DNA of 64,000 nucleotides from a virus (lineage: Duplodnaviria > Caudoviricetes), in IMG/VR virus record IMGVR_UViG_3300028833_000086, positions 32,001 through 96,000 of that record, one strand, 5' to 3'. The notes below the pieces were generated by a model, which saw only the letters and a list, made by a program, of their open reading frames with translations, was not told the DNA's origin and did not search any database. Each line of letters begins with the position of its first letter. Position 1 is the first letter of the stretch. The position numbers and the translations under genes are program-made. Below are positions 6,818-63,863 of the stretch, in pieces.

Positions 6818-8587
6818 TTATTTTATAATCGAACTTTTACGAATAGAAGATCCAAGTAAGTCTAACAAAGATTTTGTACTCTCATCATTTTTACGTTGCA
6901 TCTCGCGACCAATGATCTGAGCCACATAATAATTATATTCAAGACTTGAGAATCTATCCTTACGCATACCTGAATGTTCTTTGAGTTTAACCTTGTTATC
7001 TACAATCTTACCTTCGAGGTTAACCATCTCATTAACCAACGCAGTTGTCTGTGCGTACGGCATAAGTAATTTCACTTTTTCTTCAGTCGACATAGATGCA
7101 TAGCCAGCAACTTTTTTTACTACTTGCTCTGCATCATATTCATTGATTAATAGTGAGAGATTACCAGTCTGTATACCCGCACGAAGAGCAGTAGCCATTT
7201 CAGAGTTCTCTTGTGCATACGCCTTAATAGTCCATACGCACTTATTTGCGTTGGGCTCTCTACAACGTTCCGCCATGGCTACATCATTGCAACTACACAT
7301 AGCATCATATGTTTCACCAGTCTCCGCATCAAACTGCGGACGAGCGATAAAGTCATATACTGGAAGTCCAATACCATTTGTATCCAGTACTAGATCGGTA
7401 CACTTATAATGATTAAAATATCGCATTATAATAATACCAACCTCTTCGGTTGTTTTACCTTCAAAAGTTTCCACATAAACAATATGTGACGCCATTCCGT
7501 TATTACTAGGCGTTGCAATATTAATTTCTATTGCAGTAGCATCGTTATTGGTTGCCTTACTTGCCATGAGCGCAACATCCACAGATAATATTCGACGTTC
7601 ACCTTCTGCAAGATCAGGAACATTTATACCACGTTTTTCATAAAACTCAAATGGCAAGAAAGCATTCTTAATCACACGACAACTTGACACTTCGTCGTAT
7701 TTATAAAAAGCATCTTCCGCTTCGCCATAGAACAAAGCCTCACGTTCCATCCTAAATGAAATAGGATCAAAATCCGCTTCAGACATTTCGTCTTCAACAG
7801 CTTCTTTTGAAAAGATACCTTCTTCAATGCCAACTTCATATGGTAAGCCGCAGCAAAAATATCTCTTATTGTCATCTAGCATAAGCGCAGCATCAGACTT
7901 GCACTTTTCAAATATCCACGAACTCTTATAGTATGCGGATGTCGTATACATCTCTATATTTCTTTCCTGATATTTGGGATTATTTTTATATTCAGGCAGA
8001 TTCATATAGGGAGGTTTTCTGAGCGAGGTCAAGAATTTTTTAAGAACGTCTTGTACTATTTTTTTCTTAACCATTCTTGATTCATCTATTATTACTATAG
8101 TTGCACGATTACTACGAGCGGTATCACTTGCCGTAACAACTTTAATCCACGATCCATTTTTAAAAGTAACATGTGGATTATTTATTGCTGTAGTGATTTC
8201 TTCAATTTCATTTGATAGATTACTGCTACCCCAGTCATGTAATTTCATGAAGTCGGTTTCAATCTTACCTATAATCTCAACCGCCTGAGACTTAACTCCA
8301 GATGCTACACATACTTTTGTAGCGGGATAAAGAATACACCTAATCACACAATAAAGTGCAATTAAATACGTTTTGCCTAAGCCTCGGCTCGCGATCCAAT
8401 TGAAGACCGTACACAAATTCATTACATACAACAAAATTTTTTGAAATATACCCAATTGAATATTTAAAAACTCAGCAGCAAAGCGTTGAGGATTCGCACG
8501 ATAAAACGCTGTCCATATTGCCACACCTTCCATTAGGTTATCATATTTTTCCTGTTGTATCTGAGCAAAGCTCTTTTTATTACTCAT
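6818..8587 (-). CDS. terL: Terminase large subunit (SPbeta YonF-like)
   Basis: Walker A ASRGLGKT, Walker B IIIDES, RNase H-like SVDVA / LDTNGIG / RKDRFSS. Confidence 0.88.
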   Translation of the reverse strand: MSNKKSFAQIQQEKYDNLMEGVAIWTAFYRANPQRFAAEFLNIQLGIFQKILLYVMNLCTVFNWIASRGLGKTYLIALYCVIRCILYPATKVCVASGVKSQAVEIIGKIETDFMKLHDWGSSNLSNEIEEITTAINNPHVTFKNGSWIKVVTASDTARSNRATIVIIDESRMVKKKIVQDVLKKFLTSLRKPPYMNLPEYKNNPKYQERNIEMYTTSAYYKSSWIFEKCKSDAALMLDDNKRYFCCGLPYEVGIEEGIFSKEAVEDEMSEADFDPISFRMEREALFYGEAEDAFYKYDEVSSCRVIKNAFLPFEFYEKRGINVPDLAEGERRILSVDVALMASKATNNDATAIEINIATPSNNGMASHIVYVETFEGKTTEEVGIIIMRYFNHYKCTDLVLDTNGIGLPVYDFIARPQFDAETGETYDAMCSCNDVAMAERCREPNANKCVWTIKAYAQENSEMATALRAGIQTGNLSLLINEYDAEQVVKKVAGYASMSTEEKVKLLMPYAQTTALVNEMVNLEGKIVDNKVKLKEHSGMRKDRFSSLEYNYYVAQIIGREMQRKNDESTKSLLDLLGSSIRKSSIIK

Positions 8588-9659
8588 CTAATGCGCCACC
8601 ATAGATCTTATTAAATATGTCTTCTGAATCCTCATCTATACTAAACTCTGGACGGGTGGCAGCATATTGACGCATATAGTCATCGTACATTTTAGAATAC
8701 TTATTCTTAATACCAAGCATTTTACATAAGTGTCCCAAGAAATAAACACTGATATATAATCCAATCTTATCTACATCTTTAAACTGGGGGTCTATATCGG
8801 CAACAGGACGTGTCTCTTCAAGTTTCTGTATAAGTTGTCCGTAAGACTCCACGCCACCAGTAACATCATTCTTATTTTGTTTAGGCGTAATATCACCAGT
8901 TTCCATAAGCTTTTGCAATGTAGCGGTTAACTTATCAGTGGATTCATTGTTAAGTCGCGCCTTATGCAATTCAAGCTGAGTGAATGCAATATTCTTAAAT
9001 AACTCTTCTTGAGCTTTAGAATTACATTCATATCGATCACACCAGTCAGAATACTCTGTTTCAAGAAAATGCAAATCATGCAAGCTGTATTCATTACCAA
9101 AATGTTTCTTGGCATTTACAAATATCTCATCGCTCTCGTCAAACTTCTCTTCAACTGGACGCTGCTCATAACTTCCAAACTTACTATCTTTCCACTTACG
9201 CCCCTTATACTGCGGCAGACTTTGTATCTGCGTAATATAAACAGCGAAAGGAGATTGATAAGTTTTTCTGTTGGTCGGATCATTCTTCTGATTATCCACA
9301 CCATTAACAGCGTTCATATACACTTCGTCATAATAAGGTTTATCCATAAGCTCAAGAACCTTCATTACGCTTTCCTTTGTTTCGTTAGGTGGATCAGATT
9401 CTCTTTTTCTTTGTTCTACCAACATCTGCACGCATTCTTTACATATAGGAAAATATCCTGCCTTAAAGCGTGCGTCTTTATAGAAGCCAGTATGATAACC
9501 AGTGTTACGCTTCCAGTTGTCGCACTTAGGACAATACATAATGTCACAGTCAAGCATTTTATTATAGGTGTCAGCAAACTTGCTATAAATCCTGCGCATG
9601 TCGGCGACACCAAGTTTTGATTCCTCGCCTAATGGCGCGGGTTGTAAATTCGTTGCCAT
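8580..9659 (-). CDS. Zn-finger protein overlapping terL start; probable terminase small subunit
   Basis: CPKC...CKEC; position directly upstream of terL. Confidence 0.5.
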   Translation of the reverse strand: MATNLQPAPLGEESKLGVADMRRIYSKFADTYNKMLDCDIMYCPKCDNWKRNTGYHTGFYKDARFKAGYFPICKECVQMLVEQRKRESDPPNETKESVMKVLELMDKPYYDEVYMNAVNGVDNQKNDPTNRKTYQSPFAVYITQIQSLPQYKGRKWKDSKFGSYEQRPVEEKFDESDEIFVNAKKHFGNEYSLHDLHFLETEYSDWCDRYECNSKAQEELFKNIAFTQLELHKARLNNESTDKLTATLQKLMETGDITPKQNKNDVTGGVESYGQLIQKLEETRPVADIDPQFKDVDKIGLYISVYFLGHLCKMLGIKNKYSKMYDDYMRQYAATRPEFSIDEDSEDIFNKIYGGALDE

Positions 9660-9684
9660 ATTTCACCATTTTATCCTTTTAATC

Positions 9685-9714
9685 AAAAGCCCTCGGCGCT
9701 TAACGACCGAGGGC
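9685..9714 (-). terminator. Rho-independent terminator closing the ncRNA cassette
   Basis: GCCCTCGG-10 nt-CCGAGGGC-TTTT on minus strand. Confidence 0.7.
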
Positions 9715-9761
9715 AAACATTTGTAGCGCGACTATTTTTATCTTTAGCGGTCGCGACGCTT
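9715..9761 (-). ncRNA. H-type pseudoknot, CptI-like unit 3
   Basis: AGCG/CGCT stem, loop CGCGAC pairs with GTCGCG, linker AAAGATAAAAATA, followed by CAAATGTTT. Confidence 0.55.
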
Positions 9762-9797
9762 ATGACAGTCTATAGGCTCCATGCCTCCATGGAGTCA

Positions 9798-9856
9798 GTG
9801 CAGCAGCAAGGAGTTGCACCTTGCCTCGGGGAATTCTCCCCAAACTGTAGCTGCAT
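9798..9856 (-). ncRNA. D-arm-less tRNA-like element
   Basis: Acceptor-like TGCAGC/GCTGCA; TTGGGGA-gaat-TCCCCGA hairpin; T-arm-like GCAAGG-TGCAACT-CCTTGC. Confidence 0.5.
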
Positions 9857-10005
9857 AACAAAGGTTCCCGTAGGAACCTTTTCAGGTCACGGGCCCGCAA
9901 GCTTCCGTAACACGATCATTACTACCGCCTGTAATTACAGTCGATATGTATCATAGTAACTTAGCAGGAATATACGTCTCCCATAACGTTTAGATTTTAA
10001 TCAAA

Positions 10006-10035
10006 ATTTCAATATGCCTCACGTTACTATGAATA
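10006..10035 (-). CRISPR. Solitary CRISPR-repeat-like unit (type I-B-like); not an array
   Basis: TATTCATAGTAACGTGAGGCATATTGAAAT, 30 nt ending ATTGAAAT as in clostridial I-B repeats. Confidence 0.5.
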
Positions 10036-10037
10036 AA

Positions 10038-10101
10038 GCAGCCGAGGGGGGATCGAACCTCCATTAAGATACGCACTAATTGCGTCCACAGCCATCGACC
10101 C
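10038..10101 (-). ncRNA. D-arm-less tRNA-like element
   Basis: GGTCGA/TCGGCT acceptor-like; ACGCA-attag-TGCGT; GGAGG-TTCGATC-CCCCC T-arm (one mismatch). Confidence 0.5.
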
Positions 10102-10131
10102 CAAAAAACAAAAGACGCCATAATTGATCAA

Positions 10132-10161
10132 ATTTCATAACAGCTATCGTTATCGTTCGTC
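10132..10161 (-). CRISPR. Second solitary CRISPR-repeat-like unit (divergent)
   Basis: GACGAACGATAACGATAGCTGTTATGAAAT, 30 nt; overlaps the end of the tandem pseudoknot repeat. Confidence 0.35.
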
Positions 10162-10235
10162 GCTTATATAGGTGGACGTTCACCCATCTTTATCGTCCCT
10201 CGCTTCTTTTATGGTGGAGGTTCACCAATCTTTAT
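10151..10235 (-). ncRNA. Tandem 42/40-nt pseudoknot repeats, ToxI/TenpI-like
   Basis: GGTG-AACCTC-CACC..GAGG and GGTG-AACGTC-CACC..GACG; compensatory change in stem 2. Confidence 0.6.
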
Positions 10236-10322
10236 ATGACGTCTTCGAAGACTCCTTCTACACATGACAGATGAGTTGAAAATTTTGCGCCCCCTCCACC
10301 TATAGGACATAAGCGAGAGGAG
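10235..10322 (-). ncRNA. Duplicated structured motif, copy 2 (GUCCU-loop hairpin, GGCGCA, CAUGUGUAGAAGGAG)
   Basis: 16-nt and 15-nt blocks identical to 10453..10535. Confidence 0.55.
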
Positions 10323-10325
10323 ACA

Positions 10326-10430
10326 AAACATTTGAACCCCGAGCTTTTATATACCGCATCTCGGGTAGCGGGAAACATTTGGTTGCGTACCTTTTATTTA
10401 TGTCGATATACGCTCCCGACACAACATTTG
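10326..10430 (-). ncRNA. Two tandem H-type pseudoknots (49 and 47 nt) delimited by CAAATGTT; CptI-like
   Basis: TGTCG/CGACA + GCGTAT/GTACGC; CCGC/GCGG + CCCGAG/CTCGGG; linkers TAAATAAAAG and TATATAAAAG. Confidence 0.7.
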
Positions 10431-10452
10431 CAAAAAACACTATGTATAAAAC

Positions 10453-10535
10453 ATAACGTCTTTAGTAACTCCTTCTACACATGGTAGTCGAGCTATCTGC
10501 GCCCCCTCCACCGCTAGGACAGCAGTGGAAGGAAC
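10453..10535 (-). ncRNA. Duplicated structured motif, copy 1
   Basis: CCTTCCACTGCT-gtcct-AGCGGTGGAGGG hairpin, then GGCGCA...CATGTGTAGAAGGAG. Confidence 0.55.
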
Positions 10536-10600
10536 GCAATCACGGAAGGAAGAATCTATGAATATAATATAGAGGACAGAATTAGCCCTCTACGAGTGGA

Positions 10601-11818
10601 TTAATTAAGTTTATAAGTGTATTCGCACGTCTTTCCTTTACCACTTTCAAACACAAACATTGAAGCTCCAGCGTTTGAAGTTTTGTTAAGTGACATTCCA
10701 AATGGATCTACACCAATTATACTTCTAATATGGATTGCTTCGGCATTAATACCAACCTCAGTATTTTCGGCATGGTGTTTATGACCAGCTATTATATAAT
10801 CAAAGGACATATTATACGCTCGACCAATATCGTTTATAGCATCGGCAAGATTTTTAACCTCACCATGTATTCCAAGGACTGAGCTTCCCGCGAACACCCC
10901 GTAGTTCATTCCTGTCTCATTTTCCGTAACAATAATATTCTTATTATTTTTGAGACGCTCTTTTAAAAATGAACTAATTACCTTGCTCATATTTTCGTCG
11001 GGAAAAGCATTTTTGGGTGCCCCACACAGTCTAAGTTGATTATGATTGCTATCAACAACCATCTGGAAGTCGATAACTACATGTTCGCTCAAGGCGGTCA
11101 GCCAGTTTGCCATATACTCTGCATATAATAGAGAAGACTCAATCACTCCATATCTTAATTGCATTAACTGAGAATTAAGTCTTAACATCCCTTGGATACC
11201 ATCCCCAAGCTCCCACACAGATAATTTACGTATCTTTTCTCTTTTTATTGTTGTAACAACATCGGAGAGAAGAGCATTCATTCTCTGTTCAAATATCTCG
11301 GGGCTATAAGCGTTTACTATATTGCCAAATAAATCCTTGATCTCAAATTCTATACCATAATGAGCATCGGCTAAACACAGGAGATACTCCTTGTCGCTTT
11401 CGCCCACCGTCACAACCTTAGGAATCTTGATAGGCGGAAGAGTCTTAATTGCTTCTTTAATATGTTCAACAATCAATTCATCACGCGCTAATTCGCGTAT
11501 GTTTTTATTAAACTCAATTTTTTCACTTTGAATTTTATAACGCTCTTTTCGAAGACTACAAAGTTTATCATCAAATCCAAGGTTTCCTGTTGATCCATAT
11601 TTATTTTCATAATACTTCTTAACAGCATAGCCGCCAAATAAAGTACCATTTGCTTTTCTTAGTACATCGGTTGCGTAGGGAATATTATATATATCTTTTA
11701 ATTCTTCCCAATCTATATCAAGATTACCATCGAGCTTGTCCACGATATCCGACAGACACTGTTCATAATCTTCAACCGACATTCCTATCTTCTCAAGTTC
11801 TAATTCGATATTCTCCAT
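10601..11818 (-). CDS. Calcineurin-like metallophosphoesterase
   Basis: LADAHYG, LGD, SNHN, GIHG, AGHKHH motifs. Confidence 0.8.
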   Translation of the reverse strand: MENIELELEKIGMSVEDYEQCLSDIVDKLDGNLDIDWEELKDIYNIPYATDVLRKANGTLFGGYAVKKYYENKYGSTGNLGFDDKLCSLRKERYKIQSEKIEFNKNIRELARDELIVEHIKEAIKTLPPIKIPKVVTVGESDKEYLLCLADAHYGIEFEIKDLFGNIVNAYSPEIFEQRMNALLSDVVTTIKREKIRKLSVWELGDGIQGMLRLNSQLMQLRYGVIESSLLYAEYMANWLTALSEHVVIDFQMVVDSNHNQLRLCGAPKNAFPDENMSKVISSFLKERLKNNKNIIVTENETGMNYGVFAGSSVLGIHGEVKNLADAINDIGRAYNMSFDYIIAGHKHHAENTEVGINAEAIHIRSIIGVDPFGMSLNKTSNAGASMFVFESGKGKTCEYTYKLN

Positions 11819-15146: not shown

Positions 15147-17159
15147 TTAATTTAAAATTATTTCTCTAGCAAACTGCATGGTTTTGCTGCCACACATTTT
15201 GCCAAACAAAGCCCCCGCCTCAACAACGAGTTCTTTTTCCTCCTTTACGCAATCATCATAAACAAACTTAGGCAATACCTTCGCTACCGCCCCCATATCT
15301 TTAGGCGTAATCTCTGCAGGTACTTCACCGTCGTCGCGAAGTTTCTCAATTGCCTTTTCAACACGGCGCCTTGTAACAATGTCATCTACAATACGCTGGC
15401 ATTTTTCAGCATCGATAATTTCCTCTGGTGACTTTTCCCTAGGACGCGACTTGGTTTCTTTAAATGAATCATTAACTAACTTTAAATAAAACCACTTGTC
15501 AGTTCCCTCAAGTCTGTCCTGAGATTTAACCACACAACCTTCCTGTGTTGGCCCGTAATATCCATCGCCCGCCATAAAAGACTTTACATGATCCCATGAA
15601 ATAAATGGGCCATCATATAAAACATGAATATAAGTAAGTCCAACCTCGTCGCACATTTTCCTAACAAAAGTCTGTGGGAGGTAATGTCCAGTCGCATTGT
15701 CGTATATGTCGTATACTATCCAATGATTACGGGCGTATTCGGGCTTATAATCTTTAATGGCATTGCCGCAAAGATTCCACTCTCCAAATACCACCATCGA
15801 TTCATGACCGTTTTGAAACCAGCCGAGCAGCGTGTCAAGTTCTGTTCCGTACTGATAGAAACCATTGAGATTATTATTATAATCTAATACCTTATTTCTT
15901 GAGCACGCTACCAAATGTCCATCTTCGTAATATAAGGACGCATTAGAATTATGTGTTAAAATTCCATGTGCAAAAAAATTATGATTATCTTCCACCTCAA
16001 TATCGTATCCTTTACTACTACACATAGAACTTTTACATTCTTTATTTATTGAAATGATCTTATGTTCGTATAACGCCTTATCAGAGGGTATGAGTTTTTC
16101 AAAATAGTTATCCCAAAATGTATAAGACATTCTATACTCTTCAGGTAATTTATATTGCATTGACGGAATAATATATGGAGCGACTAACGAAAAGAAAATA
16201 TTACTTCCAACCAAATTCATATCTAGTTTATAATATTTATTTTTATAAAATTGAATATGACTTTCTATCCCATATTTCTCATAAAGCATATCTTTCATAT
16301 TTACTACTTCATCATATGAATAAGCTTCTACATGTAAAGATGCTCTATCTTTTTGAACAGAAGAGTGTTTTAAACTTCCGTCATCCATATACCATATACT
16401 TAATCCTATAGGTGTTAGATTTTTTATAAATTCTTTACTTATATATTTTTTATTATTTATTATTGCTTTCGATATTTCATCGTTTATACTAGGAAGACAC
16501 CTTGTTCTTCCTTGATACACTTTAGTACCATATCCACTTATTCCTTCTCGTTCATTACAAATAAAAGGAGATAGCAACCTAACTTTAAAATTGAAATAAT
16601 CTTTTTGCTGAATGGAATTACAAAAATGAATACCCTTATTAGCAAGTGGTCGCGTTGTAGGGTTTGGATAAATACTTCCATCGCCAAGAATACTTGCGTA
16701 TATAACTTGTTTTTGTATTTCTGTAGGATAAATAGCCGTTGAATATACACTATCTCCAACTTTTAATTCTCCTGCTGCGACATATCCGTTTTGAGTCCAG
16801 AATTTATGATTTGGTGTTGGATAAACCGATGCAGAATGACCAAATCCCTCCACTTTATCAAATGTAATTTTCATAAAATCTTGTCTACCATTATCCGACC
16901 AACCAATAACTTTTTTAGGCTCGACTTTTTGAGTTTCTGTATTATAAGATAGTACTTCCACGGAAAGTTTATTTTTTACTATTTCGCCAATGGTTTTTTC
17001 TGTTCCGTCTGCTAGTCTAATAGGTGTCTTACTAGGCAAACACCCGTCAACTTTAGTAGTAATTTGTATATGCTCTCCAACATTAAAACCCGACACATTA
17101 TTTTTGCGAAACTCAGTATCCTCTATACGAGCCGCCTCAATGTCTATAAATTTTTTCAT
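15147..17159 (-). CDS. ATP-dependent RNA ligase (Rnl2-like) interrupted by an intein
   Basis: Spliced motif I TTKVDG|SNAS, SRN, FGEW, YDI, EGCVVK, KLV. Confidence 0.8.
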   Translation of the reverse strand: MKKFIDIEAARIEDTEFRKNNVSGFNVGEHIQITTKVDGCLPSKTPIRLADGTEKTIGEIVKNKLSVEVLSYNTETQKVEPKKVIGWSDNGRQDFMKITFDKVEGFGHSASVYPTPNHKFWTQNGYVAAGELKVGDSVYSTAIYPTEIQKQVIYASILGDGSIYPNPTTRPLANKGIHFCNSIQQKDYFNFKVRLLSPFICNEREGISGYGTKVYQGRTRCLPSINDEISKAIINNKKYISKEFIKNLTPIGLSIWYMDDGSLKHSSVQKDRASLHVEAYSYDEVVNMKDMLYEKYGIESHIQFYKNKYYKLDMNLVGSNIFFSLVAPYIIPSMQYKLPEEYRMSYTFWDNYFEKLIPSDKALYEHKIISINKECKSSMCSSKGYDIEVEDNHNFFAHGILTHNSNASLYYEDGHLVACSRNKVLDYNNNLNGFYQYGTELDTLLGWFQNGHESMVVFGEWNLCGNAIKDYKPEYARNHWIVYDIYDNATGHYLPQTFVRKMCDEVGLTYIHVLYDGPFISWDHVKSFMAGDGYYGPTQEGCVVKSQDRLEGTDKWFYLKLVNDSFKETKSRPREKSPEEIIDAEKCQRIVDDIVTRRRVEKAIEKLRDDGEVPAEITPKDMGAVAKVLPKFVYDDCVKEEKELVVEAGALFGKMCGSKTMQFAREIILN
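15948..17042 (-). mobile_element. Intein (365 aa) with LAGLIDADG homing endonuclease
   Basis: Starts CLPSKT, block B TPNHKF, ILGDGS and WYMDDGS, ends YDIEV..NHNFFA...THN followed by Ser; more AT-rich than flanks. Confidence 0.92.
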
Positions 17160-63760: not shown

Positions 63761-63863
63761 CGGTGAGTGGTGTAATGGTAACACGGCAAGGCTTTTATTC
63801 TCCTGTTGCTTACAAAACTTTTCCAAAAATTCGCAGATGTTGGTTCAATCCCAGCCTCACCGA
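63761..63863 (+). tRNA. Atypical tRNA with ~30-nt expansion of the anticodon loop
   Basis: CGGTGAG/CTCACCG acceptor; GTGT-aatggta-ACAC D-arm; GTTGG-TTCAATC-CCAGC T-arm; 103 nt. Confidence 0.6.

What the first reader, a model, noticed from the sequence alone, without database searches (positions are those of the whole stretch)
10326..10430. Orphan CptI-like type III antitoxin mimics: tandem pseudoknots delimited by CAAAUGUU
Seen: CAAATGTT(T/G) recurs at 49- and 47-nt spacing. Each interval has a different sequence but the same fold: 4-5 bp stem 1, 10-11 nt loop, UAWAUAAAAG linker, 6-bp stem 2. Unit 2 (AUGUUU-CCCGC-UACCCGAGAU-GCGGU-AUAUAAAAG-CUCGG-GGUUCA) closely parallels the ~45-nt Eubacterium rectale CptI repeat as I recall it, which needs verifying. 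Real antitoxin arrays have near-identical repeats and a toxin gene downstream; here the units are diversified and no toxin follows. Inference: decoys for several CptN variants, cut out at the conserved A-rich motif.
Basis: partly seen in the sequence, partly recalled or inferred. Interest (0 to 1): 0.88.

Follow-up and report, generated by a model that had tools for sequence, protein, structure and literature searches.

The report
Toxin-less CptI antitoxin array in phage
A large gut phage carries a complete copy of the small knotted RNA (CptI) that gut bacteria use to hold their CptN suicide toxin in check, but no toxin gene, so the phage most likely makes the antidote itself to disarm that bacterial defence.

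Summary
On the minus strand, CAAAUGUU occurs three times at 49- and 47-nt spacing and bounds two H-type pseudoknots. Unit 2 is a significant sequence match to the crystallised E. rectale CptI (nhmmer E 4.7e-6 over the whole 122.7-kb phage genome).

The decisive result is that the 104-nt stretch 10429-10326 aligns without gaps, at 91% identity, to the two-repeat cptI array of a bacterial cptIN locus (metagenome contig L299). That array is followed by a terminator and a curated CptN toxin. Seven natural loci of this clade have the same two unlike repeats. The "diversified" units are therefore the native repeat-1/repeat-2 pair of one array, not decoys for several CptN variants.

No cptN, toxN or tenpN gene was found in the 97%-complete phage genome, and a positive control for the search worked.

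Best reading: an SPbeta-like phage of gut Clostridia captured a cptI array and uses it as an antitoxin decoy against CptN abortive infection. The closest precedent is pseudo-ToxI/hijacked ToxI of phage PhiTE. Function is inferred, not shown. A third, more deviant unit lies at 9760-9722.

This scan noted toxin-less CptI copies before on other DNA, both phage and bacterial. This is a new member of a known kind.

The parts
10423..10430 (-). First junction CAAAUGUU. This is the predicted CptN cut CA^AA that frees the 5' end of unit 1.
   Evidence: By homology with the junction of natural cptI arrays and with the scissile A45 of CptI_Er (PMC4627078).
10380..10428 (-). Unit 1, a repeat-1-type CptI pseudoknot of 49 nt. 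S1 is UGUCG/CGACA, S2 is GCGUAU/GUACGC, and the A-rich linker ends in G.
   Evidence: It matches repeat 1 of L299 apart from one compensated pair in S1, linker changes and tail changes.
10333..10379 (-). Unit 2, a repeat-2-type CptI pseudoknot of 47 nt. S1 is CCGC/GCGG, S2 is CCCGAG/CUCGGG, and the linker is UAUAUAAAAG.
   Evidence: nhmmer E 4.7e-6 against the E. rectale-type CptI profile. The core is identical to repeat 2 of L299 and to single units in L300 and L301.
10326..10334 (-). Third junction CAAAUGUUU, which closes unit 2. Homology to the bacterial array ends here.
9722..9760 (-). Unit 3, a deviant CptI-like pseudoknot. S1 is AGCG/CGCU, S2 is CGCGAC/GUCGCG, and the linker is 13 nt. 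It has no 5' junction. I could not confirm that it belongs to the same system.
   Evidence: No relatives in viral contigs.
9715..9723 (-). Fourth junction CAAAUGUUU, directly after unit 3.
9689..9714 (-). Intrinsic terminator that closes the non-coding transcription unit. A terminator stands at the same place in related phages.
10497..10539 (-). Module A1, a conserved ~20-bp hairpin that precedes the cptI pair. I suggest it is a leader or processing element of the RNA island.
   Evidence: 20 pairs, 8 with compensatory changes among 4 copies, including relatives L004 and L006.
10285..10327 (-). Module A2, a second copy of the hairpin. It lies directly after the cptI pair and before module B.

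Best explanation
Shown: window 10429-10326 (minus strand) is a complete two-repeat cptI gene. cptI encodes the RNA antitoxin of the CptIN type III toxin-antitoxin family. The copy lies in the non-coding RNA island of an SPbeta-like phage of gut Clostridia and has no toxin gene with it.

Inferred: the phage captured the array from a bacterial or prophage cptIN locus of the clade represented by contig L299. The array is transcribed as part of the island. The host's own CptN endoribonuclease would cut the precursor at the three CA^AAUGUU junctions. That would release 49- and 47-nt pseudoknots, which stay bound to CptN in an inactive complex.

The phage would thus keep supplying antitoxin when host transcription stops and the labile host CptI decays. 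CptN-mediated abortive infection, or exclusion by cptIN-bearing prophages, would then not fire.
For: 1. The stretch aligns gap-free to the L299 array at 95/104 (91.3%) identity. The homology starts and ends exactly at the outer junctions.
2. In L299 the array is followed by a terminator and a 158-aa protein. That protein scores 163 bits on NCBIfam NF047359 (CptIN family toxin, cut-off 90).
3. Unit 2 matches the E. rectale CptI profile at E 4.7e-6. It keeps A29 and U30 of the A-minor twist, whose mutation abolishes antitoxicity (PMC4627078).
4. Only 2 of the 9 differences from L299 lie in stems, and those two compensate each other.
5. All three junctions are intact, so both units can be released whole. 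In wild-type PhiTE, by contrast, the 1.5 repeats encode no full unit (PMC3475682).
6. No cptN, toxN or tenpN was found in the 97%-complete genome. The positive control gave E 1e-74.
7. Related phages have the same gap with the same leader hairpin and terminator but different cargo, so the array is an acquired insert.
8. Toxin-less CptI-like units recur in other large viral records. L267 lies in a complete 167-kb genome, L261 in a 144-kb contig, plus L249. None has cptN.
9. cptIN loci with the same junction sit on proviruses, which gives a natural target.
10. The precedent for the mechanism is pseudo-ToxI and hijacked ToxI of PhiTE.
Against: No functional data exist.

CptIN has not been shown to abort phage infection. 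E. rectale and R. torques cptIN gave no protection in E. coli (PMC3401426).

CptN toxins are highly specific for their cognate CptI (PMC4627078). The phage copy differs from L299 in the single-stranded tails that contact the protein. The true target toxin is therefore unidentified, and it is unknown whether the host carries a matching cptIN.

No sigma-70-like promoter was found in front of unit 1.

Toxin-less cptI arrays also occur in bacteria, according to earlier notes of this scan. Being orphan does not by itself prove an anti-defence role.
Confidence: 0.68

Rival explanations
1. Neutral remnant. The phage, or an ancestor, picked up part of a cptIN locus by illegitimate recombination, the toxin gene was lost or never taken, and the array is a passenger without function.
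For: Toxin-less cptI arrays are common in gut bacteria according to earlier notes of this scan, where some were read as fresh remnants. Close relatives of the phage lack the array. No promoter was detected directly upstream.
Against: Both units and all three junctions are intact. The only stem changes relative to L299 are a compensating pair. The captured segment is trimmed exactly to the functional array. Toxin-less units recur in at least three other large viral records.
Confidence: 0.15
2. One reading: each unlike unit is a decoy tuned to a different CptN variant.
For: Units 1 and 2 share no stem sequence. A third unit (9760-9722) and a second kind of tandem pseudoknot (10235-10154) lie in the same gap, so the island as a whole might still address more than one toxin.
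Against: Units 1 and 2 are the repeat-1 and repeat-2 types that stand together in front of a single cptN in seven natural loci. All units share one junction motif, which points to one nuclease.
Confidence: 0.07
3. A cis-acting RNA element, such as a transcript stabiliser, a processing signal or 'punctuation', that merely shares the H-type pseudoknot fold and has nothing to do with CptN.
For: The units sit among other structured RNAs in a non-coding island.
Against: The stretch is 91% identical to a genuine cptI array over 104 nt. Unit 2 hits the CptI profile at E 4.7e-6.
Confidence: 0.04
4. A complete toxin-antitoxin pair whose toxin is an unrecognised phage protein. One candidate is the 359-aa gene (8580-9659) that follows unit 3 and the terminator.
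For: The order pseudoknot, junction, terminator, gene mimics the type III layout.
Against: The 359-aa protein matches no CptN, ToxN or TenpN model and no Pfam or NCBIfam family. It is 78-83% conserved in relatives that lack any CptI-like unit. It is more than twice the size of CptN.
Confidence: 0.04

Closest known systems
CptI, the RNA antitoxin of the CptIN type III toxin-antitoxin system (Eubacterium rectale; PDB 4RMO; Blower 2012 PMC3401426; Rao 2015 PMC4627078)
   Same: Same H-type pseudoknot: S1 of 4-5 bp, S2 of 5-6 bp, a conserved AU spacer, and a 9-10-nt A-rich linker ending in G with the A29-U30 kink. The units stand in tandem and are bounded by the A^AA processing junction. Unit 2 is about 79% identical to CptI_Er, with compensatory changes in both stems.
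   Different: No cptN follows or exists in the genome. The array lies inside a phage non-coding island instead of behind its own promoter. It belongs to a clade whose junction is CA^AAUGUU and whose two repeats are unlike each other.
cptIN locus on metagenome contig L299 (JAEEGL012634646.1) and its Lachnospiraceae relatives L304-L308 and L312
   Same: The array is 91.3% identical over 104 nt. It has the same repeat-1/repeat-2 order, the same junctions and the same S2 helices.
   Different: In the bacterial loci the array is followed by a terminator and a CptN gene (NF047359). In the phage it is followed by another structured RNA module. The phage copy has a full CA^AAUGUU junction in front of unit 1 as well.
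Pseudo-ToxI and hijacked ToxI of Pectobacterium phage PhiTE (Blower et al. 2012, PMC3475682)
   Same: A phage-borne, toxin-less copy of a type III RNA antitoxin. There it was shown to suppress ToxN abortive infection by molecular mimicry, and one escape phage acquired ToxI by recombination.
   Different: A different family (ToxIN, not CptIN). Wild-type PhiTE encodes only 1.5 repeats and needs expansion in the laboratory. Here a wild phage genome from gut metagenomes already carries two complete, excisable units.

Membership tests
CptI (RNA antitoxin of CptIN) | H-type pseudoknot with two coaxial stems, a short L1 and a long A-rich loop that ends in G | tested here: met
   Units 1 and 2 were segmented by a descriptor scan. 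All pairs are Watson-Crick or G-U.
CptI (RNA antitoxin of CptIN) | Sequence homology to an experimentally defined CptI | tested here: met
   Unit 2 scores E 4.7e-6 against a profile of 43 E. rectale-type units. Unit 1 is not found by that profile but is near-identical to repeat 1 of L299.
CptI (RNA antitoxin of CptIN) | Tandem units bounded by the toxin's processing junction | tested here: met
   Three CAAAUGUU junctions at 49/47-nt spacing. The same junction occurs in loci with a confirmed CptN.
CptI (RNA antitoxin of CptIN) | Array followed by a terminator and a cptN gene | tested here: not met
   No CptN was found with NF047359, PF13958, NF047358, two custom profiles or tblastn. The positive control gave E 1e-74. 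The RNA therefore qualifies as CptI, but the locus is not a cptIN module.
CptI (RNA antitoxin of CptIN) | Cut by CptN and neutralises it | not testable with these tools
   Needs kill/rescue and cleavage assays.
Phage-encoded type III antitoxin mimic (pseudo-ToxI kind) | Encoded in a phage genome without the toxin | tested here: met
   The flanking genes are terminase, head protease and exonuclease. The terminase is 42% identical to SPbeta-like phages. The record is a virus record, 97% complete.
Phage-encoded type III antitoxin mimic (pseudo-ToxI kind) | Expressed during infection | tested here: inconclusive
   Contigs of two metatranscriptome runs from one sheep-gut sample cover 9940-10381 at 100% identity. 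Contigs cannot separate RNA from carried-over DNA, and they cannot show strand or level.
Phage-encoded type III antitoxin mimic (pseudo-ToxI kind) | Suppresses abortive infection by the cognate toxin | not testable with these tools
   Needs phage deletion mutants and cptIN-positive hosts.

The most novel reading that the evidence does not exclude
The whole 941-nt gap (9660-10600) is a modular anti-defence RNA island. A conserved leader hairpin (module A) and a terminator frame exchangeable cargo. In this phage the cargo would be a library of decoys:
- the cptI pair;
- a third CptI-like knot;
- a second family of tandem pseudoknots (10235-10154) for an unknown toxin;
- tRNA-like folds.

If so, the phage's possession of cptI would be the first indirect evidence that CptIN acts as an anti-phage system in its native gut hosts.
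Probability: 0.3. Interest if true: 0.75.

Novelty: new member of a known kind. Interest (0 to 1): 0.55.

Why it matters
CptIN is widespread: it was found in 43 of 401 sampled Lachnospiraceae genomes, and one near-identical locus occurs in at least 120 species. Yet it has never been shown to stop a phage, and its natural role has been left open since 2012.

A wild gut phage that carries an intact, toxin-less copy of the matching antitoxin is the footprint one expects if CptN does threaten phages in these hosts. It gives a concrete toxin-decoy pair to test.

It also extends RNA-antitoxin mimicry beyond a laboratory-evolved Pectobacterium phage to natural phages of the gut microbiome. And it shows that cptI arrays of one clade are built from two unlike repeats, which matters for how such arrays are searched for.

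Tried and rejected
- Rfam gave nothing in the gap, at gathering score or at E up to 10. ARAGORN found no tRNA there.
- blastn of the gap against GenBank phages gave no match.
- Minimum-free-energy folding of single units was uninformative, with z between -0.9 and +0.7, because nested folding cannot see pseudoknots.
- A first viral scan with a 15-base pattern gave only chance hits.
- Unit 3 has no relatives in IMG/VR under a stem-specific pattern.
- Module B (10235-10154) has no relatives in IMG/VR. A junction-pair pattern in 401 Lachnospiraceae genomes gave only coding-repeat noise; I inspected one tandem hit, and it was a coiled-coil gene.
- Another first-stage note proposed a CRISPR-repeat-like 22-mer at 10027-10006. 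A search allowing 3 mismatches found no array in 251 Lachnospiraceae genomes, only single hits at the control rate.
- RNA runs: a contig of one metatranscriptome run abuts Illumina adapter at 10381. That is 2 nt upstream of the predicted cut between units 1 and 2. It is one contig from one sample, so I do not count it as an RNA end.
- DNA runs from other samples hold short pieces that match only the unit-2 core (10338-10371) with unlike flanks. I could not retrieve those pieces.
- MAFFT put stem 1 of unit 1 one column out of register and misaligned unit 3. I therefore segmented the units with a descriptor script instead of using count of structure pairs.
I redid the table from the files.

Full report
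**Setting.** The finding lies in a 941-nt stretch without credible ORFs (9660-10600). It sits between two minus-strand phage genes: an exonuclease (10601-11818) and a conserved 359-aa protein (8580-9659). The head protease lies upstream and the large terminase downstream. The record is a 122,737-bp virus contig judged 97% complete, with 37% G+C. Its terminase is 42% identical to those of SPbeta-like Bacillus phages, and weaker matches include phages of Clostridium and Enterocloster. Sequencing runs that hold the stretch come from sheep and goat gut. Any RNA made here is read from the minus strand.

**The observation.** CAAATGTT is not over-represented in the window as a whole: 6 copies against about 5 expected. 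But four of the six lie on the minus strand inside this one gap, and three of them are spaced 49 and 47 nt.

I wrote a descriptor for that architecture: stem 1 of 4-5 bp, L1 of 1-3 nt, stem 2 of 6 bp, L2 of 0-2 nt, and an A-rich linker of 8-13 nt. I ran it over both strands of the whole phage genome. It found 7 sites, against 1.25 expected in composition-preserving shuffles. The only three followed by NNN-CAAATGTTT are unit 1, unit 2 and a third unit at 9760-9727. Nested energy folding says nothing here, because it cannot see pseudoknots.

**Is it CptI?** Rfam has no hit. I therefore took the CptI sequence from the literature. Primer CptI-WT of Rao et al. 2015 gives the 45-nt repeat. Its numbering fits every nucleotide named in that paper: G13, G22-24, the A27-G35 loop with A29 and the U30 kink, G44, and the scissile A45 (PMC4627078).

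A pattern that covers both that repeat and unit 2 hit at least 120 genomes, almost all Lachnospiraceae. All of them have the canonical layout of promoter, two repeats, terminator and cptN. The published 45-mer is present letter for letter in 95 loci. A profile of the 43 distinct units, searched against the whole phage genome, finds unit 2 at E 4.7e-6 and nothing else. Unit 2 differs from CptI_Er in both stems by compensating changes. It keeps the loop positions A29 and U30, whose mutation destroys antitoxicity.

**The junction.** A viral scan for two CAAATGTT motifs at unit spacing recovered a cptIN subfamily, found on proviruses and other viral contigs. In these loci the repeats are bounded by exactly this motif and are followed by a terminator and a CptN (HMM E 8e-33; NF047359, 220 bits). 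CAAAUGUU is therefore the counterpart of the E. rectale junction GA^AAGUUU, where CptN leaves a cyclic phosphate on A45.

**The source array.** A metagenome scan with the unit-2 core found contig L299. Its array has the order repeat 1, repeat 2, junction, terminator, then a 158-aa CptN (NF047359, 163 bits against a cut-off of 90). The gene beyond it looks, by eye, like a PEP-utilising (PtsI-type) enzyme, which suggests a bacterial chromosome; I did not test this.

The phage stretch 10429-10326 aligns to this array without a gap at 95 of 104 positions. The homology begins and ends at the outer junctions. Of the nine differences, two form a compensating pair in stem 1 of unit 1, none touches the other three helices, and the rest lie in the linker of unit 1 and in the single-stranded tails.

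I searched 401 sampled Lachnospiraceae genomes with the L299 CptN and found the family in 43 of them. The closest loci (L304-L308, L312) all carry the same hetero-repeat design: a repeat-1 type followed by a repeat-2 type, with co-varying stem 2 sequences between genomes. The two units are unlike each other because that is how arrays of this clade are built, not because the phage diversified them.

**Orphan status.** No CptN, ToxN or TenpN was found in the phage genome. I used Pfam PF13958, NCBIfam NF047359 and NF047358, a 32-sequence CptN HMM run with filters off on all six frames (best E 0.074), an 11-sequence alignment spanning two subfamilies, and tblastn with the L299 toxin (best E 0.41). 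The same alignment finds cptN at E 1e-74 in three viral records that are known to have it. The next ORF downstream of unit 2 is 660 nt away. It matches no toxin model and is 78-83% conserved in relatives that have no CptI-like unit.

**Acquisition.** Five related phage contigs have the same gene order but a gap of only 111-367 nt. Two of them (L004, L006) share the leader hairpin (module A) and the terminator, but carry a tRNA-like fold as cargo instead. Module A is a ~20-bp hairpin with 8 compensated pairs among four copies. The gap is thus a variable RNA island, and the cptI pair is one insert in it.

**Recurrence.** Single CptI-like units with the same junction and no cptN occur in other large viral records. 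L267 lies in a complete 167-kb genome with terminal repeats. L261 lies in a 144-kb contig, where the unit is followed by five tandem 37-nt repeats of another kind. L249 is a third case. Units identical in core to unit 2 stand alone in L300 and L301. Earlier notes of this scan report toxin-less CptI copies in another sheep-gut phage and in gut bacteria. I did not check those notes.

**Mechanism.**
- Shown: the sequence identity, the fold, the junctions and the absence of a toxin gene.
- Inferred: the array is transcribed with the island. Host CptN cuts it at CA^AA. The released 49- and 47-nt knots keep CptN locked in its inactive complex after host CptI has decayed.

The model rests on the established behaviour of type III systems (Rao 2015; Blower 2012) and on phage PhiTE. 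There, expanded pseudo-ToxI or recombined ToxI suppressed ToxN abortive infection (PMC3475682).

Several points count against it. CptIN has not been shown to abort infection. CptN is very specific for its cognate RNA, and the phage tails differ from those of L299. I found no sigma-70 promoter in front of unit 1. The RNA-run evidence consists of contigs only.

**Novelty.** In the papers searched I found nothing on phage-borne cptI. The only precedent for an RNA antitoxin mimic is PhiTE. The mechanism would be the same, in a different family and in a wild phage, so I class it as a new member of a known kind. The wider reading, that the whole island is a decoy library, remains open. Module B and unit 3 have the right fold but no identified natural counterpart.

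Noticed in passing
window 10154-10235 (minus): Module B is two tandem units of 42 and 40 nt, bounded by AUAAAGAU, plus a partial third junction at 10153-10146. Each unit can form an H-type pseudoknot. The 4-bp second stem covaries between units (CCUC/GAGG versus CGUC/GACG). I found no natural counterpart and no toxin partner.
   Followed up: partly
window 9795-9859 and 10028-10100 (minus); L004:3870-3935; L006:3740-3805: These are tRNA-like folds with an acceptor-like stem and a T-arm with a UUCGAUC/UGCAACU-type loop. ARAGORN and Rfam do not call them. The one at 9775-9862 folds with z -3.65. Relatives carry such folds as the cargo of the same gap.
   Followed up: partly
window 10285-10327 and 10497-10539 (minus); L004, L006: Module A is a ~20-bp hairpin with a conserved UGUCCUA loop, followed in the window by CAUGUGUAGAAGGAGU. 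There are two copies in the window and one in each of two relatives. Eight pairs show compensatory changes. Its role is unknown; it may be a leader or an RNase III-type processing site.
   Followed up: partly
L299, L304-L308, L312: Natural cptI arrays of this clade consist of two unlike repeats in a fixed order. CptIN is a 2:2 complex, so this raises the untested possibility that one repeat of each type enters each complex.
   Followed up: no
L127-L246 (genome contigs): One E. rectale-type cptIN locus, with the first repeat identical to the crystallised CptI, occurs in at least 120 species-level genomes across many Lachnospiraceae genera. That implies very recent horizontal spread.
   Followed up: no
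L261:1680-1900: In a 144-kb viral contig, an orphan CptI-like unit behind a sigma-70-like promoter is followed by five tandem 37-nt repeats of another pseudoknot-like unit and then a terminator. No cptN is present in the record.
   Followed up: partly
L004:599-895: A related phage contig carries a group I intron (Rfam RF00028, 58.5 bits) about 3 kb upstream of the gap.
   Followed up: no
window 15147-17159 (minus): A 670-aa ORF combines RNA ligase matches with a LAGLIDADG homing-endonuclease match at residues 147-340. This may be an intein or a fused endonuclease.
   Followed up: no
window 63761-63863: Rfam calls a 103-nt tRNA (41.7 bits) that ARAGORN does not report. It may be an intron-containing or otherwise unusual tRNA at the edge of a second RNA island.
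   Followed up: no
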